A stretch of DNA of 64,000 bases from Candidatus Saccharimonadia bacterium (GTDB taxonomy: Bacteria > Patescibacteriota > SICC01), in the NCBI GenBank assembly GCA_025449535.1, contig JANWJF010000001.1, positions 138,847 to 202,846 on the forward strand, read 5' to 3'. Both the position numbers and the translations under genes were made by a program. The notes under the pieces were generated by a model. That model had not been told where the DNA came from. It ran no database searches and saw only the letters and a program-made list of their open reading frames with translations. Of the stretch, positions 24,274 to 32,503 are shown in pieces; positions within the stretch are counted from its first letter, which is position 1; the number at the start of each line of letters is the position of its first letter.

Positions 24274-25530
24274 ATGCCCCCCAAACCCCGTAACCGCGAC
24301 CGGCTTTCGGTCTACTTCCTATCGGCCGGACTGTTCCTTGCCGGGGCCTTGTTGGCGCTCCTGGTGACGCGAGGCTACGCGATCGATATCGATTCGCTCA
24401 CGCTGCAGAAGCGCGGCGTGATCGTGCTGCATTCCGAACCGGATTCCGCGGAGGTCACGCTGGACGGCAAGCGCCTCGGCAAGCGGACGGACGCCCGGCT
24501 GTCCCTGGCCCCGGACACGTACCGGCTGAAGGTGGAGACCCCGGGCCGGATCCCTTGGGAACGGGAAGTCAGGTTGGCTCCCGGCGAGGCGGTCATCGAG
24601 GAGATAGTCCTCTTTCCCGACGCGCCAGGGCGCACCGACCTGACCGAGCGGCCGGTCGAACGGTACGCCGTGTCTCCGAACGGCCGCCGGATCGCCGCAG
24701 TCACCTCGCGCCGTGGCGACGCCCTGCTCCACCTACTGGACAGTGAGGGTCAGGAACGGTACGCCGCGCGATTGGACGCCGCCCCAGGCTCCGTGGCTGT
24801 CGACGACGGCGAGTTCGCGTTGGCGGAGTCGGCCGGCCGAATCGCCGTCTACGACCCGACCGGTAAACGGGTCGGCAACATCCCCGGCGGCAAGGCCGCG
24901 TTCGTCGGTGGTAGAGTCGTGTTCCAGCGAGGACCACGGCTGCTATCGACGGACCGGAACGGCGCGGAGGGCCAAGTTTTAGCTACTTCCCCCCGCGGTT
25001 GGGCAGCCACGGCCGGGAACGTCTACATCCTGGGTCGCGACGGCGCGCTCGCCGACGTCACGCCGGGAACCGCACGCGAAGCCGTCCCGGACGTCGCACC
25101 GGTCCGGACGATCGCTTCCGCCGGCCCGGAAGCAGTCCAGGTGACGCAGACGGGCGGTTCGTTCGGTATCATCCGGAATGGCTCGTACGTGCCGATCGGA
25201 CAAGGTGCCGCCCGCGTCTTCCTCTCTCCAGACGGTAAGTTCGTCGCCTACCGGACCAGCCGGGAAATCCGCTTGTTCGACCTGGAGACCGGCCGGGACC
25301 GCCTGGTGACCAGCCTGACCGATCCGCCGGAGCGGATCACACCGCTGCCCGGCGGATACTACCTGCTTTTCCGCCGGAGCGACGGACTGCACGCCATCGC
25401 CCGGGACGGCAGTAACGACCGGGTCGTCGCCAGATTGGTAGGCGGTGAACCGACGGTGCTCGGCCTGGATCGTATCCTGACTACGGACACTCGGACCGGA
25501 CGCCTGGTGCGGATCGACCTCAAGGACTAG
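24274..25530 (+). CDS. membrane-anchored protein with PEGA-like domain and beta-propeller-like repeats
   Basis: N-terminal TM; PEGA-like segment (IVLHSEPDSAEVTLDGKRLG...YRLKVETPG); repeat-rich C-terminus. Confidence 0.55.
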   Translation: MPPKPRNRDRLSVYFLSAGLFLAGALLALLVTRGYAIDIDSLTLQKRGVIVLHSEPDSAEVTLDGKRLGKRTDARLSLAPDTYRLKVETPGRIPWEREVRLAPGEAVIEEIVLFPDAPGRTDLTERPVERYAVSPNGRRIAAVTSRRGDALLHLLDSEGQERYAARLDAAPGSVAVDDGEFALAESAGRIAVYDPTGKRVGNIPGGKAAFVGGRVVFQRGPRLLSTDRNGAEGQVLATSPRGWAATAGNVYILGRDGALADVTPGTAREAVPDVAPVRTIASAGPEAVQVTQTGGSFGIIRNGSYVPIGQGAARVFLSPDGKFVAYRTSREIRLFDLETGRDRLVTSLTDPPERITPLPGGYYLLFRRSDGLHAIARDGSNDRVVARLVGGEPTVLGLDRILTTDTRTGRLVRIDLKD

Positions 25531-26336
25531 CGGACGCCTGGCAGCCGATCGGGATTGGCGGCCTGGCCGCTGGTCGGGCGGGCATCGGCGGGATCAGGAC
25601 TGACTTGGCGCGCTTGGACGATCTTGCGTCGGGCGCTAGTCCCGACGGGCACGCAGGTAGACAATGTCACGGTAGCTACCGGCGTGGGCTTGAGGACTCC
25701 CGTCTGGGTCGGGTCTACCTCGAAGATGGCATGGACGCGGTAGGAGTATTTCCGACCCCGGGCGTATATGACGATCTCGTCGTTCTGACGGAGCTGGGGC
25801 ACCAACGCGAAGACGTTCCGATAGTCGGTCTTGACCCACCAGTAGTACGAGCTGTGCCCGGTCAGGAAGACGTTCCCTTGCTCGCCCGGCTCGGCGGTGC
25901 CGGGATACTTGATCACACCCTTGAGCAAAGCGTCGTTGATCACCGCCTCGGCCGTGGAGTCGGGACGCACGATCGGTGCGGCTACCCGGATGCGCGGGAT
26001 GTAGAGATAGTTGTCGCAGATGGCCCGGGGGCGGCCTTGGCCGTCGTACGGTATGTTCCCCTGGCACGGGACGCCGGCCGGACCGCCGTCAGGACTCTCC
26101 CCGGACGACCCGGAGGTACGTACCGTCTCGGGCAGCGTCGCGGCGGATCCGGTCTGAGGGTCGCTGAGCAGGAAGGTTAGCCGGGTCCAGAGCGCCGGGA
26201 AGTTGAATACCACGTAGACCGCCACGGCGATCAGAAGCACCGGCACGGCGCCCAGGAGCAGCCGCCAGAGCAAGCCGCGCTGGGGCTCTTCTTGATAGGA
26301 CGGCGTGGCTGGGTACGTGGTCGATGACGGTTCCAT
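25527..26336 (-). CDS. sortase (transpeptidase)
   Basis: N-terminal TM; catalytic His (LTGHS), TLSTC Cys motif and following Arg. Confidence 0.8.
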   Translation of the reverse strand: MEPSSTTYPATPSYQEEPQRGLLWRLLLGAVPVLLIAVAVYVVFNFPALWTRLTFLLSDPQTGSAATLPETVRTSGSSGESPDGGPAGVPCQGNIPYDGQGRPRAICDNYLYIPRIRVAAPIVRPDSTAEAVINDALLKGVIKYPGTAEPGEQGNVFLTGHSSYYWWVKTDYRNVFALVPQLRQNDEIVIYARGRKYSYRVHAIFEVDPTQTGVLKPTPVATVTLSTCVPVGTSARRKIVQARQVSPDPADARPTSGQAANPDRLPGVR

Positions 26337-26374
26337 ATGGCCTCAGTAGGGTTACAGTATCAGGCTTTTCGGTG

Positions 26375-26458
26375 TGCCGGGGGTGGGATTCGAACCCACA
26401 AGCCCTTGCGGGCAGCGGATTTTGAGTCCGCCGCGTATGCCAGTTCCGCCACCCCGGC
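26375..26458 (-). tRNA. tRNA-Leu (anticodon CAA)
   Basis: hand-folded cloverleaf: acceptor GCCGGGG/CCCCGGC, anticodon loop CUCAAAA, long variable arm, T-loop TTCGAAT; CCA not encoded. Confidence 0.85.
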
Positions 26459-26516: not shown

Positions 26517-27677
26517 GTGACCCTAACGTACGTCTTCGCCGCCGCCTTCCTCCTGACACTGGTCCTGCTGATCCGGTCGCTCTTCCGGCAGGCCGGCATC
26601 CAGGACGCCATCAAGCAGACCGCCGAAGAGGCGGCCGACCAGCTGCGTCTCTGGGAGGAGTTCGGCGAGCATCTGGACGAAGGTCTGGCGCTGGTTGGCC
26701 CGGACGGAACGATCCGGTACGTCAATCGCGCTTTCTCGGAACTGACCGGCTGGAAAGGGCGCTCGGCTAAGGGCCAGAAGCTCAAGGCGGTCCTCGCGGT
26801 GCTGGACGGCGACAAGCCGTTCGCACCGGACGAGAAGAAGCGCAAGGGCATCGTACGGTCTCGCGACGACGCACGGACCGCGGTGTACGTGACGAAGCGG
26901 AAACTCCACCAGCCGCAGGGGTTCGAGGTGGTCGTCCTGGTCGACGCTACCGCCGAGGACGCGGAGAAGGCGCTCCGGCGGCGGCTGGTGAACCTTTCTT
27001 CATTCGAGTTACGGGCGCCGATCACCGCGATGAAGGGCTACGCCGACATGCTGCTCTCCGGTGACGCCGGCAAGCTGGACAAGGAGGCGAAGACTAAGGT
27101 GAAGATCATCCTGGAAAGTTCGGACAAGCTGCTCCGGATCATCGACGACATGTCGCAGGTCCAGGCCTTGTCGGAGGCCAAGCCGGCGGCCGCCAGGAAG
27201 CGCACCAAGGCGACCGCTCTGGCCGAGGCATGCACCGGATCCTTGCAGCGGGTGACCGCCGAGTCGGGGCGCAGCTACGAGCTCGAGCCGATCAAGTCGG
27301 ACAGCGAGGTCGAGGTCGCCCCGGCGGACGTCGAACGGCTGCTCGGCATGGTCGCGAACACGGCGGCCCGGACGGGAAAACCGGGCAGCGTGGTGACGAT
27401 GCGGCTGGTGGAGAACGACGCTGAAATCGACTTCCGGATAGAGAACGAGGGCGCTCCCCTGGCCCGCGATCAGCAGAAGAACGTGTTCGATTACGTCGGC
27501 GCCCAGGGGTTCGACGAGGGCATCGGCTACTACGTCGCACAGCAGATCATCTCGGCCCACGGCGGCCGTTTCTCGGTCAGTCAGATCCCGGCCGGCAACG
27601 CGTTCACGCTAAGCCTGCCACGAGCCAAGGAGACCGTTGCCAAGAAACGTCCCAAGAAACTCGACATCTCCGAGTAG
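26517..27677 (+). CDS. histidine-kinase-like protein (PAS + DHp-like + degenerate ATPase) lacking the phospho-acceptor His
   Basis: GTG start; H-box position reads SFELRAPITA (F encoded by ttc where His is expected); N box and DEGIG present, G2 box weak. Confidence 0.7.
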   Translation: MTLTYVFAAAFLLTLVLLIRSLFRQAGIQDAIKQTAEEAADQLRLWEEFGEHLDEGLALVGPDGTIRYVNRAFSELTGWKGRSAKGQKLKAVLAVLDGDKPFAPDEKKRKGIVRSRDDARTAVYVTKRKLHQPQGFEVVVLVDATAEDAEKALRRRLVNLSSFELRAPITAMKGYADMLLSGDAGKLDKEAKTKVKIILESSDKLLRIIDDMSQVQALSEAKPAAARKRTKATALAEACTGSLQRVTAESGRSYELEPIKSDSEVEVAPADVERLLGMVANTAARTGKPGSVVTMRLVENDAEIDFRIENEGAPLARDQQKNVFDYVGAQGFDEGIGYYVAQQIISAHGGRFSVSQIPAGNAFTLSLPRAKETVAKKRPKKLDISE

Positions 27678-27680
27678 ACG

Positions 27681-29153
27681 TTACCCCAATACCGAGACGG
27701 GGGGCTTCGGGGCCACACCCTTGGTGGCGACCCGCGTCTGCTTGAGTGGCAAGCGGAAGCCGAAGGTACTTCCCTTTCCGAGCTCGCTCCGTAGGGTGAC
27801 CGAACCCTGGTGCTCGTCGATGATCCGCTTGGCGACATAGAGTCCGAGCCCCGTGCCCGAGGAAAGGACGTCCCGGGCATTGGCGGCCCGGAAGAACTTG
27901 GTGAACATCTTGTCCCGATCGGCCTCGCCGATCCCGATCCCCTGGTCCGTGACCTCGAGGACGGCGTCGTCCTCCTGTTCGCTGAGGCGTACCCGTACGG
28001 TGCCGCGCTTGCTGTACTTGATCGCATTGTCCACGAAGTTCACTACCGCTTGACGGATCCGCAGCGCATCGACGTTGAGGATCCCGATCGGGTGGTCCGG
28101 CAGCAGTAGCTCGATGTCGAGCCCCTGCTTGCGGGCCAACGACCGGAACTCGCCGACCACGTCCTGGGCGATGTCCTCCAGCCGGGCGATCCCCTTGGTA
28201 AGCTCGAACCGTTCCGCGTTGATCCGCGAGACGGAGAGCATGTCGTTCAGGATGTTGATGACTTCGTTGGTGCTCTCCGAGATTTGCTCGACGATCGGAC
28301 GCTGCCGCTTGGCCAACACCCCGAAGTCCTTGTCGAGCAACATCGCCAGGTAACCGCGGACCGCCGTCAGCGGCCCGCGCAGCTGGTGCGAGGCGATGGA
28401 GACGAACTCGTCCTTGCTGCGATCCGCCTTGCGGAGATCCTGGTTGACGTCGCTGAGCCGCCGGTTGGTCAAGTCGAGTTCGTCTAATAGCTCGGCATTG
28501 ACCATCGCCACGGCCAGGCCGTCCGCCAGGCCCTGTAACGTCTCCCTCTCGTCGTCCGAAAGATGTTCGTACGCCTTCCGAAGGTAGAACGTCACCACGC
28601 CGTGGACCTGCTCGTCGGCGATGACGGGATGCGCCACCAGCCCGGCGATACCCAGCTTCTTCTGGAGTCGCTTCGCCTGCTCGGCAGATACCGAATCCTC
28701 GAAGTCCTCCAATGCCCCGCCGGATACCACCTGGCGCTGGTTGAGCGCCTGGACGACGCGTGGCATCCCCCGGTTCGACTTCAGCATCTCCAGGGATGTG
28801 CTGGTAAGACGCCCTAAGCCCTTGCCGCCGTCACGAAGCGGCTCGGAGACCGCCAGGACGGTCAGGGACCCGTCGGACTTCGCCTGACGGATCGTCCCGC
28901 CGAGGACCATCCTTAGGTCGGGGATAACGTCCGCGATCTCCTGGGCGATATACCCGATCGAAAGATTGGCCAAGAGCATCCGATTGATCTGCCGACTGCG
29001 TGCCAGGCTGCGGTCCGCCAGCTCGCGGTTAGCCGCCACGCGGCGATGCACCAGTCGCAGACGGAACGACTGCCCGACCAGCGCGAGCAGTGCCAGGGCG
29101 AGAGCCGAACTGAATACGATGATAAGCATTTGAAAATTGCTTAACCATAACAC
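27681..29153 (-). CDS. sensor histidine kinase (TM + GAF-like sensor)
   Basis: intact H-box SHQLRGPLTAV; N, G1 (DQGIGIG) and G2 (GTGLGL) boxes. Confidence 0.85.
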   Translation of the reverse strand: MLWLSNFQMLIIVFSSALALALLALVGQSFRLRLVHRRVAANRELADRSLARSRQINRMLLANLSIGYIAQEIADVIPDLRMVLGGTIRQAKSDGSLTVLAVSEPLRDGGKGLGRLTSTSLEMLKSNRGMPRVVQALNQRQVVSGGALEDFEDSVSAEQAKRLQKKLGIAGLVAHPVIADEQVHGVVTFYLRKAYEHLSDDERETLQGLADGLAVAMVNAELLDELDLTNRRLSDVNQDLRKADRSKDEFVSIASHQLRGPLTAVRGYLAMLLDKDFGVLAKRQRPIVEQISESTNEVINILNDMLSVSRINAERFELTKGIARLEDIAQDVVGEFRSLARKQGLDIELLLPDHPIGILNVDALRIRQAVVNFVDNAIKYSKRGTVRVRLSEQEDDAVLEVTDQGIGIGEADRDKMFTKFFRAANARDVLSSGTGLGLYVAKRIIDEHQGSVTLRSELGKGSTFGFRLPLKQTRVATKGVAPKPPVSVLG

Positions 29154-29202
29154 TTTTTGTTCAGATTGTCAATGCGCAGGCAACCATGGGACAATGCGGA
29201 TA

Positions 29203-29583
29203 ATGGCAAAGATAAACATTATCCTGGTAGAAGACGACTCCGTATTGGCGGAGATGTACGTCCAGAAGTTCACGCGCGAAGGGTTCGACGTCAGGCATGC
29301 GCTGGACGGTGACGAAGGTATCCGACTGGTTAAGGAGAAGCGGCCGGACCTGGTCCTCTTGGACATCATGATGCCCAAGAAGAGCGGCATCGAGGTACTC
29401 GAGGAACTCCGGAGTTCTTCGGAGACCAAGGGCGTGGCCGTGGTATTGCTTTCCAACGTCGGCGACCAGGAATACATCGACAAGGGCATGGCGCTCGGTG
29501 CCGTGGGATACCTCCTCAAGTCGAACTACACGCCCAGCGAGGTCGTCAGTAAGGTCCGCGAGATCCTGGCCGAGCGAGCTTAG
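29203..29583 (+). CDS. single-domain CheY-like response regulator
   Basis: receiver motifs (ILVEDD, LVLLDIMMP, LLSNV); start trimmed to internal ATG (MAKINI); ATG 9 nt upstream is equally possible. Confidence 0.8.
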   Translation: MAKINIILVEDDSVLAEMYVQKFTREGFDVRHALDGDEGIRLVKEKRPDLVLLDIMMPKKSGIEVLEELRSSSETKGVAVVLLSNVGDQEYIDKGMALGAVGYLLKSNYTPSEVVSKVREILAERA

Positions 29584-30672
29584 CGTTTCAGGCGCAGTTC
29601 CGCTTCCACGAAGTCGTCCAGATCGCCGTCCAGCACGGCGTCCGGGTCCTTGCGTTCGATGCCGGTCCGGAGGTCCTTCACCTGCTTGTACGGGTGCAGG
29701 ACGTACGAACGGATCTGGTTGCCCCACGCGGCGGTATCCCCTTTCTCGAGTTTCCGGAGGTCCGCCTTCTGCCGGGTCTCCGCCAGGGCGAGCAGCTTGC
29801 CATAGAGGATCTTCTTCGCGATCACCTTGTTCTGCATCTGGGATCGCTCGTTTTGCGATTGGGCGGTCAAGCCCGTCGGTACATGCGTCACCCGGACCGC
29901 GGAATCCGTCTTATTGACATGCTGTCCGCCGGCCCCTGACGCCCGGTACGTATCTATCCGCAGGTCCTTGTCGTCGAGTTCCACGTCCGTCTCCGGGAGG
30001 TCCGGTAGGACCTCGACCCGCGCGAACGAGGTCTGGCGCAAGCTTTTTGCGTTGAACGGGGATTGGCGCACCAACCGGTGCACCCCGGATTCGCCCCGAA
30101 GGTAACCGTAGGCGTACGGGCCGTCGACCCGGATCGTCACGCTCTTGATGCCGGCTTCCTCGCCCGTCGAACGTTCTTCGATCTCTGTGTGCCAGCCGCG
30201 CTGCTCGGCATACCGCAGGAACATCCGCTCCAGCTTCTCCGCCCAATCCTGGGCATCCGTGCCGCCGACGCCGGCCTGGATCGTGAGGTGGGCCGATTTC
30301 GGATCGTGTTCGCCGGCAAGCAGCGCTTTCGACTCGTGTTCGGTAAACGTTTCCTCGGCCTGCTCGAGACTGTCCGTGAGCTCTTGCTGGATGGATTCGT
30401 CCTGCTCCGCGAGCTGGAACAGCTCCGACAGGTCCTGGAGCTCGTGCTCGAAACGCTGCCAGAAAGCCACTTCTTCTTCCAAGGCGTTCAGGCGCTGCAT
30501 TACCGCGCGCGCCTCTTCCTGGTCCTTCCAGATGTCTTCCCGTTCGGACTGCTTCCTTAGGGTCGCAAGCTCGGCTTCTTTCTCCTCGAGGTCAAAGAAA
30601 CTCCTTCACCTGCGCGAAGCGCTTCGCCAGGCCGTCGATTCGTCCCTGTGACTCGTGCCAGTTTTCCACCAT
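29580..30672 (-). CDS. prfB: peptide chain release factor 2, with programmed +1 frameshift near 30592-30597
   Basis: frame 0 MVENWHESQGRIDGLAKRFAQVKEFL then in-frame TGA within AGGAG-TTT-CTT-TGA-C; +1 frame continues DLEEKEAELATL... into the track ORF carrying SGAGGQHVNKTDSAVR. Confidence 0.9.
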
Positions 30673-30730
30673 GGCCGCATTATACGCCAGCGGCACGCGC
30701 CTTTCGCGATGCGGATCGCGTCCCCATTTG

Positions 30731-30758
30731 AAAAAGGCCCCCTTTCGGGGACCTTTTT
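30731..30758 (-). terminator. intrinsic-terminator-like hairpin flanked by A/T runs
   Basis: aaaaaGGCCCCCtttcGGGGaCCttttt immediately downstream of the LPXTG-protein gene stop. Confidence 0.4.
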
Positions 30759-30781: not shown

Positions 30782-32503
30782 TTAGCCCTCTACCGATTGG
30801 CGACGGACCGCCTTCTTGAGCGCGTTCCGTTCCCGACGATACAGGTAGGTGCTGCCCGCGACGGCGGCCAGCGCCAGCGCCGCGGCGGCCGGAGTACCGG
30901 TCATCGGCAGCGCGCCCTTCACTTGGGCCTGCGGCGGGATCGGCTTCGGCGGAACCTTCTTCTGGATCCGCTGGTTACCGAACTTCAGCACGGCGGTACC
31001 GTTTTCCACCACTTCGGTCTGTTGGACCGTCTGGGTGGTCGGGTTGAATCCGCCCGGGACCTGTTCCTCGGCACGGTACGTGCCGGGTTGGAGGTCGCTC
31101 ATCAGGATCTCGCCGTTGCCGTCGGTCGAGTGCTGCGTGGCAGCTCCTGCGCCGTCCTGGTCGTCATCGGCGGATGCCGTGGCGATCGGGCTCGGTTCCG
31201 GGCTGTCGCTCGACTCCGGCGCCGGGGTGTCTTCGGTGAATTCCACGCCGACCGGGCCGACGAAGAACGTCACGTTACCCAGTCGCGGCTCGCCCGGATC
31301 TTCCGTACCGTTCCCGTTCAAGTCCTCGAACTTGACGATGAGGAGCTGGCCCTTCTTCGGCTTTACCGGAGGGGTGGGCGTTGGGGTCGGCGTCGGAGTC
31401 GGGGTCAGGGTCGGAGTCGGGGTGGGCGTAGGGGTCGGACTGGGGGTGGGCAGGCACGACTCGACCGTATCCCATAGCGGGTGGGTCTGGTCCGAGTCGA
31501 TGGAAGCCACGTTCTTCAGACACCCGACGCTGGCCGGCGTGTCGTCCTTGACCTTCACCTTGATCAGGATGTAGCCGACGCCGTTCGGCGCGACGTTCCC
31601 GAACTTGAGGCCGCCGTTGACGACGTTGTCATCGCACGGCTTCGGAGCCGTGTCCGCGCCAAGCAGCATCTTACAGCTGCCGGCGACGTACTGGGCTACC
31701 GGGGGCAGTGAGTCTCGCACCACCGCGTTCGTCATCGGGGCCTTGCCCTCGTTGGCGAAACGGATTTGGTACTCAAGCTCCTGTCCGGCGACGACCTGGT
31801 TCTTCTCGACCCAGGTGGTCTCCCCTACCTTCCGGACCTGCTTGTTGATCCGGGCGTGGGGTGCCTGGTTGACGTCGGCCATGAAGATGATCCGCTTGGC
31901 ATCCTGGAAGGAGGCTGGCAGTTCACCGTTCTGGGTCGGCTGGACGGTGAACACGAACGCGTCCGCCGTGTGGGCCGTGGTAATCCGACTGTCCGGGATG
32001 TTCACGAGCGGCCCCCAGTTGAAGTTGGGCTGGTTCGTGGGGTTCACCTTGTTGTCCTGGTATTGGACGTTCCGGACGTTGTTAATGTTGAACACGTTGC
32101 CGTTGGCCGAGACCAACGTCGTTGGATCGGTGGTCTTGTACGGGGCCCGGGACACGCCGTTGGCGGCGGTCACTTTGGCCGTGGCGGTCACGCTGGTGGC
32201 CGCTTTCTTAGGAATGGTGAACGTGATTTTGAAGTTCCGGGCCTTGTCTCCGGTCCGGTAGTCCTCGGTGTTATGCACCAGGGCCGCGAACTGGACCACG
32301 TTACCGTGCTGCACGTTGGTCGTGCCAGCGAAGTCGGTCGGGCTGCCGGGGCCGGTCACCAGACGCGAGCCATAGGCTACGTCCAGGGCCACGCCCGCTC
32401 CCGAGACCGCTTGGATCAGCGGCGTCAGCAGCAGCGCTGCGAGCATGAACGCGCCCGCGAAGAGTCGTTTCCTGCGCATGCGCAGGTTGAAAAGGTTCTG
32501 CAT
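30782..32503 (-). CDS. LPXTG-type cell-wall-anchored surface protein (PT-repeat linker, Cna-B/SpaA-like domain)
   Basis: signal peptide; PTPSPTPTPTPTPTLTPTPTPTPTPTPP linker; C-terminal LPMTG + hydrophobic stretch + basic tail. Confidence 0.8.
   Translation of the reverse strand: MQNLFNLRMRRKRLFAGAFMLAALLLTPLIQAVSGAGVALDVAYGSRLVTGPGSPTDFAGTTNVQHGNVVQFAALVHNTEDYRTGDKARNFKITFTIPKKAATSVTATAKVTAANGVSRAPYKTTDPTTLVSANGNVFNINNVRNVQYQDNKVNPTNQPNFNWGPLVNIPDSRITTAHTADAFVFTVQPTQNGELPASFQDAKRIIFMADVNQAPHARINKQVRKVGETTWVEKNQVVAGQELEYQIRFANEGKAPMTNAVVRDSLPPVAQYVAGSCKMLLGADTAPKPCDDNVVNGGLKFGNVAPNGVGYILIKVKVKDDTPASVGCLKNVASIDSDQTHPLWDTVESCLPTPSPTPTPTPTPTLTPTPTPTPTPTPPVKPKKGQLLIVKFEDLNGNGTEDPGEPRLGNVTFFVGPVGVEFTEDTPAPESSDSPEPSPIATASADDDQDGAGAATQHSTDGNGEILMSDLQPGTYRAEEQVPGGFNPTTQTVQQTEVVENGTAVLKFGNQRIQKKVPPKPIPPQAQVKGALPMTGTPAAAALALAAVAGSTYLYRRERNALKKAVRRQSVEG

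What the first reader, a model, noticed from the sequence alone, without database searches (positions are those of the whole stretch)
26517..27677. Histidine-kinase-like protein with Phe in place of the phospho-acceptor His, adjacent to an intact kinase and a CheY-like regulator
The protein has PAS, DHp-like and ATPase-like regions, but the H-box reads SFELRAPITAMKGY (codon ttc), so autophosphorylation on the canonical His is impossible; the G2 box is also degraded. It is divergent from an intact kinase (27681-29153, SHQLRGPL) and next to a single-domain response regulator (29203-29583). This could be a pseudokinase that modulates the neighbouring pair.
Basis: seen in the sequence. Interest (0 to 1): 0.45.

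Follow-up and report, generated by a model that had tools for sequence, protein, structure and literature searches.

The report
Conserved His-to-Phe histidine pseudokinase
A membrane-anchored protein built like a bacterial sensor histidine kinase has permanently swapped its phosphorylatable histidine for phenylalanine and lost key ATP-site residues, yet it is strictly conserved beside a working kinase and a small response regulator in one Saccharibacteria-type lineage, so it is most likely a non-catalytic signalling partner rather than an enzyme.

Summary
ORF 26517-27677(+) encodes a TM-PAS-DHp-CA protein, and Phe163 (TTC, 27003-27005) sits exactly where HisKA kinases carry the phospho-His. 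No His lies anywhere in the DHp helices. All 30 orthologue clusters (45-72% identity) carry Phe.

The damage goes beyond His and G2:
- The phosphatase Thr/Asn is Ala.
- The G1 box DxGxG reads NxGxP.
- The ATP lid is about 7 residues short.

The gene is under purifying selection (dN/dS 0.10-0.26, like the intact kinase). Its best-conserved parts are DHp helix 1, which is the regulator-docking face, and the TM/juxtamembrane segment.

One correction: the pseudokinase and the intact GAF-kinase are convergent (stops 3 nt apart), not divergent. The kinase and the regulator are the divergent pair.

All 17 orthologous loci that extend past the pseudokinase carry the regulator in the block. Fifteen also carry the GAF-kinase. 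One lineage has pseudokinase followed directly by regulator, with no kinase.

The most likely role is a DivL-like, catalytically dead receptor or sink for the phosphorylated single-domain regulator. This is inferred, not shown. It is a new, independently evolved member of a known but sparsely populated kind. Interest is moderate.

The parts
26517..27677 (+). Pseudo-histidine kinase gene (pHK), 386 aa: N-terminal TM anchor, one PAS, DHp, degenerate CA
   Evidence: ORF; Pfam; 30 orthologues; AF2 model with pLDDT 80 and the expected TM helix, PAS, helical hairpin and alpha/beta CA; Foldseek top hits WalK, YF1 and VicK.
26526..26666 (+). TM helix plus juxtamembrane helix (residues about 4-50), unusually well conserved (LLIRSLFRQAGIQDA..T...LWEEFG)
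   Evidence: Mean column conservation is 0.73-0.77, against 0.41 for the N-terminus of the intact kinase.
26667..26948 (+). PAS domain (residues 51-144), ending in the conserved PAS-to-helix junction DATAE
   Evidence: Pfam PAS_8, PAS_4 and PAS; model strands and helices; alignment.
26949..27176 (+). DHp helical hairpin (residues 145-220). Helix 1 and the GDAGKL hairpin loop are the most conserved parts of the protein.
   Evidence: HisKA 2e-9; conservation 0.85 and 0.84; no His anywhere in this stretch.
27003..27005 (+). Codon TTC = Phe163 at the phospho-acceptor position. A167 at +4 replaces the phosphatase Thr/Asn.
   Evidence: F163 and A167 invariant.
27198..27623 (+). Degenerate CA (HATPase_c) domain. 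N-box Asn281 is kept. G1 reads NEGAP (N310, P314) instead of DxGxG. The ATP lid is about 7 residues shorter. G2 reads DEGIGY.
   Evidence: HATPase_c 1e-8; residue-level alignments to VicK, SrrB and DivL and to the neighbouring kinase; lid residues 327-334 have pLDDT below 50.
27681..29153 (-). Intact TM-GAF-HisKA-HATPase_c sensor kinase, convergent with pHK. The probable start is ATG at 29129. The phospho-His is H256, at about 28386-28388.
   Evidence: Pfam HATPase_c 6e-30, HisKA 6e-15 and GAF_2 2e-7; His and the N, G1, F and G2 boxes conserved in 12 distinct orthologues; the database entry P0204 is 482 aa.
29203..29583 (+). Single-domain response regulator (126 aa) with an intact active site (D12, D13, D55, S85, K107), divergent from the intact kinase
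   Evidence: Response_reg 8e-24; alignment of 14 orthologues.
29144..29195 (.). Short divergent intergenic region with one promoter-like site on each strand, for the kinase and the regulator
   Evidence: These are consensus matches only.

Best explanation
The gene encodes a catalytically dead, membrane-anchored histidine-kinase-fold protein, that is, a histidine pseudokinase. It forms a clade-specific three-gene signalling module with the GAF sensor kinase and the single-domain response regulator.

Proposed mechanism:
1. The GAF kinase autophosphorylates on His256 and phosphorylates the regulator on Asp55.
2. The regulator has no output domain, so it must act by binding another protein.
3. The pseudokinase keeps an intact, highly conserved regulator-docking face on DHp helix 1 (R166, T170, Y175 around Phe163). 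It can neither donate nor remove a phosphoryl group.
4. It therefore acts as the receptor or sink for the phosphorylated regulator.
5. Binding is passed backwards through the conserved PAS junction to the conserved TM/juxtamembrane segment. This is DivL-style reversed signalling. The output goes to the neighbouring kinase or to another membrane partner.

What is shown: the loss of catalytic residues, the conservation pattern, purifying selection, and gene linkage. What is inferred: regulator binding, the direction of signal flow, and the downstream target. The confidence given is for the whole mechanism; for pseudokinase status alone it would be about 0.9.
For: Register of Phe163 with the phospho-His: alignments to VicK, SrrB, DivL and the neighbouring kinase.

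Invariance: 30/30 family members carry Phe, while nearly all H-box matches outside the family (240 in the first 203 proteins scanned) carry His.

Further catalytic lesions, all conserved across the family:
- A167 at the E/DxxT/N phosphatase position.
- N310 and P314 in G1.
- A shortened ATP lid.

Purifying selection: dN/dS is 0.10-0.26, against 0.14-0.33 for the intact kinase.

Conservation pattern: it peaks at DHp helix 1 (0.85), the hairpin loop (0.84) and the TM/juxtamembrane segment (0.73-0.77), not in the CA domain (0.62-0.63).

Docking residues: DivL residues R553, T557 and Y562, shown by mutagenesis to bind DivK (PMC4211667), align with the invariant or near-invariant R166, T170 and Y175. 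DivL Y550F still binds DivK~P specifically (PMC4211667).

Gene linkage: all 17 orthologous loci that extend past the pseudokinase carry the regulator in the block. L013 and L016 have pHK followed by the regulator 46 nt downstream on the same strand, without the kinase.

Co-distribution: the pHK and GAF-kinase orthologue sets have the same narrow distribution and lie on the same contigs.

No other kinase or regulator paralogue occurs in the 64-kb window.
Against: - No binding, phosphorylation or structural-complex data exist. Everything about partner choice rests on synteny and conservation.
- The whole neighbourhood (ATP synthase, PEGA protein, sortase, RF2) is syntenic in this clade, so adjacency alone is weak evidence.
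- The docking residues R166, T170 and Y175 are also generic HisKA consensus residues.
- N-box Asn281 and part of G2 are retained, so some nucleotide binding cannot be excluded.
- The output target is unknown.
- In the lineage lacking the adjacent kinase, the source of regulator phosphorylation is unknown.
Confidence: 0.5

Rival explanations
1. RetS/GacS-type mechanism. The pseudokinase acts directly on the GAF kinase by forming DHp heterodimers or another kinase-kinase complex. This blocks or tunes the kinase's autophosphorylation, and the regulator is not the pseudokinase's own ligand.
For: The two DHp domains have the same hairpin length and a shared GD.G.L loop. They are identical at positions +2, +3, +5, +7, +8, +11, +12, +15, +16 and +17 after the His/Phe. 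Both proteins are anchored by a single TM helix. The genes are tail-to-tail, and they are adjacent in 14 of the 17 loci that extend past the pseudokinase; one more locus has a methyltransferase gene between them. RetS appears among the weak PDB sequence hits.
Against: The P0026 lineage keeps pHK and the regulator but has no GAF kinase at the locus, in two independent assemblies. L017 has a methyltransferase gene inserted between the two. Overall identity between the two proteins is only 27%. The shared DHp residues are largely HisKA consensus.
Confidence: 0.22
2. A scaffold or anchor unrelated to the adjacent two-component pair, of the PsmA type. The dead kinase fold would recruit or organise envelope proteins, such as the sortase, LPxTG surface proteins or the cell-wall machinery encoded nearby.
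For: The locus lies between a sortase gene and LPxTG surface-protein genes, and near MreB, MurA and glycosyltransferase genes. The TM/juxtamembrane segment is very conserved. PsmA shows that histidine pseudokinases can act as structural modulators (PMC12963549).
Against: The most conserved surface is the regulator-docking helix of the DHp. The regulator gene never separates from the block in any locus. In PsmA the His position is variable, whereas here Phe is invariant.
Confidence: 0.12
3. The protein is still an enzyme. It would phosphorylate a non-His residue, act in trans on the neighbouring kinase's His, or act as a dedicated phosphatase for the regulator.
For: N-box Asn281, F-box residues and two G2 glycines are retained. 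S161 and S162 next to F163 are nearly invariant.
Against: The G1 Asp that contacts adenine is Asn, and the second G1 Gly is Pro. The lid is truncated. The Thr/Asn required for HisKA phosphatase activity is an invariant Ala (motif as cited in PMC12963549). Ser before the His is generic in HisKA H-boxes.
Confidence: 0.07
4. A decaying pseudogene, a strain-specific mutation or a sequencing error.
For: None beyond the missing His.
Against: Phe is invariant in 30 clusters and 19 loci from independent samples. TTC differs from a His codon at two positions. dN/dS is 0.10-0.26. The reading frame is intact everywhere.
Confidence: 0.01

Closest known systems
DivL of Caulobacter crescentus (PDB 4q20), the tyrosine-containing histidine pseudokinase
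   Same: - The phospho-His is replaced by an aromatic residue. DivL Y550F remains functional in binding DivK~P (PMC4211667).
- It has a TM anchor, PAS domains, a DHp and a CA domain.
- Its partner is a single-domain regulator and it works alongside a separate bona fide kinase.
- It has a short ATP lid. The alignment with the query has no indel there apart from one residue, and DivL is the third-best PDB sequence hit.
- A conserved patch surrounds the substituted residue on the regulator-docking face.
   Different: - No specific orthology: DivL scores no better than VicK or SrrB, and the family is confined to Saccharibacteria-type Patescibacteria.
- Phe, not Tyr.
- One PAS domain instead of several.
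- DivL keeps its N, G1, F and G2 boxes and the HExxT Thr. This family has lost the G1 Asp and Gly and the Thr.
- The partner kinase here is a simple GAF kinase, not a hybrid CckA-type kinase.
PsmA of Streptomyces (hybrid histidine pseudokinase; PMC12963549)
   Same: A clade-restricted, conserved HisKA-type protein without the phospho-His and without the E/DxxT/N phosphatase motif. It has PAS domains and a non-catalytic role.
   Different: PsmA is a hybrid with a receiver domain, and it binds DivIVA. Its His position varies among orthologues (E, D, Q, V, Y). Here Phe is invariant, and the protein sits in a kinase-regulator gene block.
RetS of Pseudomonas aeruginosa (PDB 6dk7/6dk8)
   Same: A kinase-fold protein whose role is to modulate another sensor kinase without conventional phosphotransfer. 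It is a weak sequence hit (E about 3e-4).
   Different: RetS is a large hybrid protein with a periplasmic sensor and two receiver domains. Those domain facts are from my own knowledge and were not tested here. The protein studied here has none of these domains.
Canonical HisKA sensor kinases of the WalK/VicK/PhoR type
   Same: Best profile matches are NCBIfam WalK, PnpS and PhoR at E about 1e-22, all far below their curated cut-offs. Best structural matches are WalK, VicK and YF1. The domain order is the same: TM, PAS, DHp, CA.
   Different: It lacks the phospho-His, the phosphatase Thr/Asn, the G1 Asp, the second G1 Gly and a full-length ATP lid.

Membership tests
Functional HisKA-family sensor histidine kinase | Phospho-acceptor His in the H-box of DHp helix 1 | tested here: not met
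   Phe163 is in register with the His of VicK, SrrB and the neighbouring kinase. There is no His anywhere in residues 145-220. Phe is present in 30/30 orthologues.
Functional HisKA-family sensor histidine kinase | DHp (HisKA) and CA (HATPase_c) folds | tested here: met
   HisKA 37.7 bits (cut-off 26.9) and HATPase_c 35.9 bits (cut-off 26.4); AF2 model; Foldseek probability 1.00 to WalK, VicK, HK853 and CpxA.
Functional HisKA-family sensor histidine kinase | ATP-binding motifs: N-box Asn, G1 DxGxG, F box, G2 GxGxGL and a full ATP lid | tested here: not met
   N-box Asn281 is present. G1 reads N-E-G-A-P (D->N, G->P). The lid is about 7 residues shorter than in the neighbouring kinase. G2 reads DEGIGY.
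Functional HisKA-family sensor histidine kinase | E/DxxT/N phosphatase motif directly after the His | tested here: not met
   The motif reads F-E-L-R-A, and A167 is invariant. The motif definition is as cited in PMC12963549.
Histidine pseudokinase (functional class: DivL, PsmA) | Kinase fold retained, catalytic His absent, gene maintained by selection | tested here: met
   (dN/dS 0.10-0.26).
Histidine pseudokinase (functional class: DivL, PsmA) | No autokinase activity in vitro | not testable with these tools
   This requires a [gamma-32P]ATP autophosphorylation assay.
DivL orthologue group | Specific sequence relationship to DivL, Tyr at the His position, multi-PAS sensor, alphaproteobacterial distribution | tested here: not met
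   DivL scores E=1e-11, no better than VicK (1e-13) or SrrB (7e-13). The residue here is Phe, there is a single PAS domain, and the lineage is Patescibacteria.
DivL-like mechanism (works like, not member of) | Phospho-specific binding of a single-domain regulator at the DHp docking face, with reversed signal flow to the sensor domain | not testable with these tools
   Support is indirect only: conserved R166, T170 and Y175, the conservation profile, and constant linkage with the regulator gene.
PsmA family | Hybrid architecture with a C-terminal receiver; variable residue at the His position | tested here: not met
   No receiver domain. Phe is invariant, in contrast.

The most novel reading that the evidence does not exclude
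In this reduced-genome, probably episymbiotic lineage the trio could be a complete, transcription-independent signalling circuit. The GAF kinase writes the phosphorylation state of a domain-less regulator. The Phe-pseudokinase is the dedicated membrane receptor that reads it. It then passes the signal in reverse, through its conserved PAS junction and TM/juxtamembrane helix, to envelope machinery such as the flanking sortase and LPxTG surface-protein system. The invariant Phe would be the element that senses the phospho-Asp. This would be an independently evolved, more radical second example of DivL-type reversed signalling. In the lineage lacking the adjacent kinase, it would operate without a dedicated kinase.
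Probability: 0.2. Interest if true: 0.7.

Novelty: new member of a known kind. Interest (0 to 1): 0.42.

Why it matters
Experimentally understood histidine pseudokinases are very few; DivL and PsmA are the main ones. About 1% of sequenced histidine kinases are reported to lack the phospho-His (PMC5361649).

This family is a clean natural case for three reasons:
- An invariant Phe sits at the acceptor site.
- Kinase, phosphatase and ATP-site residues have all been lost together.
- The partner genes are obvious from the gene block.

It occurs in Saccharibacteria-type Patescibacteria, whose signalling is essentially unstudied. No relevant paper was found.

It would allow a direct test of whether DivL-style reversed signalling is a general, convergently evolved solution. 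It would also show how a regulator without an output domain is read out in a minimal genome.

Tried and rejected
- **His-bearing relatives.** I looked for family members that would show a recent or strain-specific mutation. A word-indexed search of 5.8 billion proteins found none. A full HMMER profile search of 1.84 billion representatives also found none. Scores fall straight from family members (at least 276 bits, all with Phe where the H-box is present) to generic kinases (at most 200 bits, with His).
- **An alternative acceptor His in the DHp.** There is none. The window protein has only H52, H131 and H348. A His eight residues upstream of Phe occurs in some orthologues (LRHRLVN) but is Arg in the window's subclade.
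- **Other kinase or regulator paralogues in the window.** None found.
- **Specificity-residue comparison and clade-wise co-variation** between pHK, the kinase and the regulator. All three co-vary with phylogeny. There are too few distinct loci (about 12) to separate regulator binding from kinase binding.
- **Terminator scan between the convergent genes.** Nothing found.
- **Literature search on Saccharibacteria two-component systems.** Nothing relevant.

Full report
**1. What is at the coordinates**

ORF 26517-27677(+) is real: 386 aa with a GTG start. The start agrees with the N-termini of 29 orthologues.

Pfam detects PAS (PAS_8 7e-6, PAS_4 2e-5), HisKA (2.1e-9, 37.7 bits, above the 26.9 cut-off) and HATPase_c (1.1e-8, 35.9 bits, above 26.4). 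The HisKA match starts only at profile position 12, immediately after the His. NCBIfam gives only generic, far sub-threshold matches to WalK, PnpS and PhoR.

An AlphaFold2 model built on the orthologue alignment (mean pLDDT 80) shows four elements:
- an N-terminal TM helix running into a long helix;
- a PAS fold;
- a two-helix DHp hairpin (145-181 and 189-220);
- an alpha/beta CA domain whose lid (327-334) is the only low-confidence internal segment.

Foldseek places the model with WalK, YF1, VicK, CpxA and HK853.

**2. Register of the Phe**

phmmer against PDB sequences aligns query SSFELRAPIT with SHELRTPLT of VicK (4i5s) and SrrB (6paj). It also aligns with SYELRTPLT of DivL (4q20), which is the third-best hit. 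BLASTP against the neighbouring kinase puts F163 opposite the His of SHQLRGPL.

The codon is TTC at 27003-27005. It differs from a His codon at two positions.

The protein has only three His residues (H52, H131, H348), and none is in the DHp.

**3. Conservation**

A search of 5.8 billion proteins returned 30 clusters at 45-100% identity, annotated as Patescibacteria, and then a drop from 319 to 68 bits. A full profile search of 1.84 billion representatives found only the family itself (P0030 and the fragments P0029, P0056 and P0065). Below that come generic, often tandem, kinases at 200 bits or less.

F163 is invariant in 30/30 clusters. Nearly all H-box matches in proteins outside the family carry His. 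GTDB genome hits name some of the MAGs as uncultured Candidatus Saccharibacteria.

Nei-Gojobori dN/dS values:

| Gene | dN/dS |
|---|---|
| pHK | 0.10-0.26 |
| intact kinase | 0.14-0.33 |
| regulator | 0.05-0.16 |

This is a maintained gene, not a decaying one.

**4. Extent of catalytic loss**

The losses go beyond His to Phe:
- The +4 residue of the HisKA E/DxxT/N phosphatase motif is an invariant Ala: FELRA. The motif is as cited in PMC12963549.
- G1 DxGxG reads N-E-G-A-P, so both the Asp and the second Gly are lost.
- The segment between the F box and G2 is about 7 residues shorter than in the neighbouring kinase or VicK.
- G2 reads DEGIGY.
- N-box Asn281 is retained.

DivL, by contrast, keeps its N, G1, F and G2 boxes and still binds ATP poorly (PMC4211667).

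**5. Where selection acts**

Column conservation across the family:

| Region | Conservation |
|---|---|
| DHp helix 1 | 0.85 |
| GDAGKL hairpin loop | 0.84 |
| TM/juxtamembrane segment | 0.73 |
| DHp helix 2 | 0.69 |
| CA | 0.63 |
| PAS | 0.60 |

Recomputed over the loci fetched up to that point, the TM/juxtamembrane segment scores 0.77. The N-terminus of the intact kinase scores only 0.41.

Residues R166, T170 and Y175 are invariant or near-invariant. They align with DivL R553, T557 and Y562, whose mutation abolishes DivK binding. They are also HisKA consensus residues, so this is consistent with the model rather than diagnostic of it.

The PAS-to-helix junction (DATAE) is conserved. It corresponds to the D-(A/I/V)-(T/S)-E transmission motif discussed for DivL.

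**6. Neighbours and geometry**

The intact kinase at 27681-29153(-) has a TM helix, GAF, HisKA (6e-15) and HATPase_c (6e-30). Its probable start is at 29129, because the database entry is 482 aa. His and the N, G1, F and G2 boxes are conserved in its orthologues.

The intact kinase is convergent with pHK, with the stop codons 3 nt apart. The two genes overlap by 4-41 nt in other loci. No terminator-like site lies between them.

The regulator at 29203-29583(+) is a lone receiver domain with D12, D13, D55, S85 and K107 intact. It is divergent from the kinase across about 50-75 bp, a region that carries one promoter-like site on each strand.

tRNA-Leu(CAA) at 26374-26458(-) separates pHK from the sortase gene.

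**7. Comparative context**

Nineteen loci were fetched. The usual gene order is ATP synthase beta(-), PEGA protein(+), sortase(-), pHK(+), GAF kinase(-), regulator(+), RF2(-), then surface proteins(-).

- The regulator is present in the block in all 17 loci that extend past the pseudokinase. L015 (1.5 kb) and L018, whose pseudokinase gene is cut by the contig end, are incomplete.
- The GAF kinase is present in 15 of those 17.
- L017 has a methyltransferase gene inserted between pHK and the kinase.
- In the most divergent lineage (P0026; L013 from a GTDB MAG and L016 from an independent assembly) the kinase is absent. There pHK is followed 46 nt later by the regulator on the same strand.

The GAF-kinase orthologue set has 27 clusters and then drops from 336 to 231 bits. 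It has the same narrow distribution as the pHK set and lies on the same contigs.

The module is therefore specific to this clade, and the constant partner of pHK is the regulator. The flanking housekeeping genes are also syntenic, so adjacency on its own is modest evidence.

**8. Mechanism**

Best supported: a catalytically dead kinase-fold protein that docks the single-domain regulator at its DHp face, without adding or removing phosphate. It would act as a receptor or sink for the regulator, and it would relay the signal backwards through the PAS junction to the conserved TM/juxtamembrane region. This is how DivL works. DivL binds DivK~P, lengthens its half-life and controls CckA, and DivL Y550F still binds DivK~P (PMC4211667; bioRxiv 10.1101/812529).

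Rivals:
- direct heteromeric control of the GAF kinase, as in RetS;
- a PsmA-like scaffold for envelope proteins;
- residual cryptic catalysis;
- a pseudogene or sequencing artefact, which is refuted.

None of the binding steps can be tested with the tools available.

**9. Comparison and novelty**

The protein works most like DivL but is not a DivL orthologue:
- its sequence similarity to DivL is no greater than to VicK;
- it has Phe rather than Tyr;
- it has one PAS domain;
- its CA domain is degraded;
- it comes from a different phylum.

It differs from PsmA, which is a hybrid protein with a variable residue at the His site. About 1% of sequenced histidine kinases are reported to lack the His (PMC5361649). 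The phenomenon is therefore known, but characterised families are few, and none was found described for Patescibacteria.

Verdict: a new, independently evolved member of a known kind. Interest is moderate.

Noticed in passing
window 29580-30671 (-), shift site at about 30587-30602: The RF2 gene (prfB) appears in the ORF list only as a 306-aa ORF starting at 30500. An upstream ATG at 30671 followed by AAGGAGTTT CTT TGA C is the classical programmed +1 frameshift site, including the Shine-Dalgarno-like element. UGA is therefore read as a stop codon in this Patescibacterium.
   Followed up: partly
window 27677-27681; L004, L006, L019: The pseudokinase and the intact kinase are convergent with only 3 nt between their stop codons. 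They overlap by 4-41 nt in orthologous loci. No terminator-like structure is present, so the transcripts probably run into each other, which allows antisense or transcriptional interference.
   Followed up: partly
L013 5992-7657 and L016 1209-2874: In the most divergent lineage (45% identity, GC 0.50-0.53) the GAF kinase is missing from the locus. The pseudokinase is followed 46 nt later by the regulator on the same strand. Its H-box reads ATFQLRAPV. I could not check whether the kinase lies elsewhere in that genome.
   Followed up: partly
window 25527-26336 (-) and 30782-32503 (-): The signalling trio lies between a sortase gene and a 573-aa surface protein with DUF11 and SpaA domains, a Pro/Thr-rich linker and a C-terminal LPMTG sorting signal followed by a TM segment. 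A hairpin with a T-run at about 30722-30750 follows that gene. Upstream lie cell-envelope genes for a WecG/TagA-family and a GT4 glycosyltransferase, MreB and MurA.
   Followed up: partly
window 26374-26458 (-): tRNA-Leu(CAA) lies between the sortase and pseudokinase genes. That leaves only about 58 bp for the pseudokinase promoter.
   Followed up: no
proteins P0064, P0071, P0081, P0082, P0084, P0085, P0088, P0109, P0120, P0126, P0148 (not in the window): A set of tandem two-module kinases of about 1240-1300 aa turned up in the profile search. Their first HisKA module reads SSDLK.PL (Ser; Tyr in P0109; Phe in P0126; Ala in P0148) instead of SHDLR.PL, while the second module keeps His. This is another, unrelated family of His-less kinase modules.
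   Followed up: no
window 28386-28388 (-) and orthologues: The intact GAF kinase also lacks a canonical phosphatase Thr/Asn in the window's subclade (SHQLRGPL, Gly at +4). More distant orthologues have Ser or Thr there. In this subclade the kinase may therefore be a poor phosphatase for its regulator.
   Followed up: no
whole window: GC content is 56-70%, and the related loci are 50-66% GC. From my own knowledge, not tested here, this is high for Patescibacteria/Saccharibacteria.
   Followed up: no
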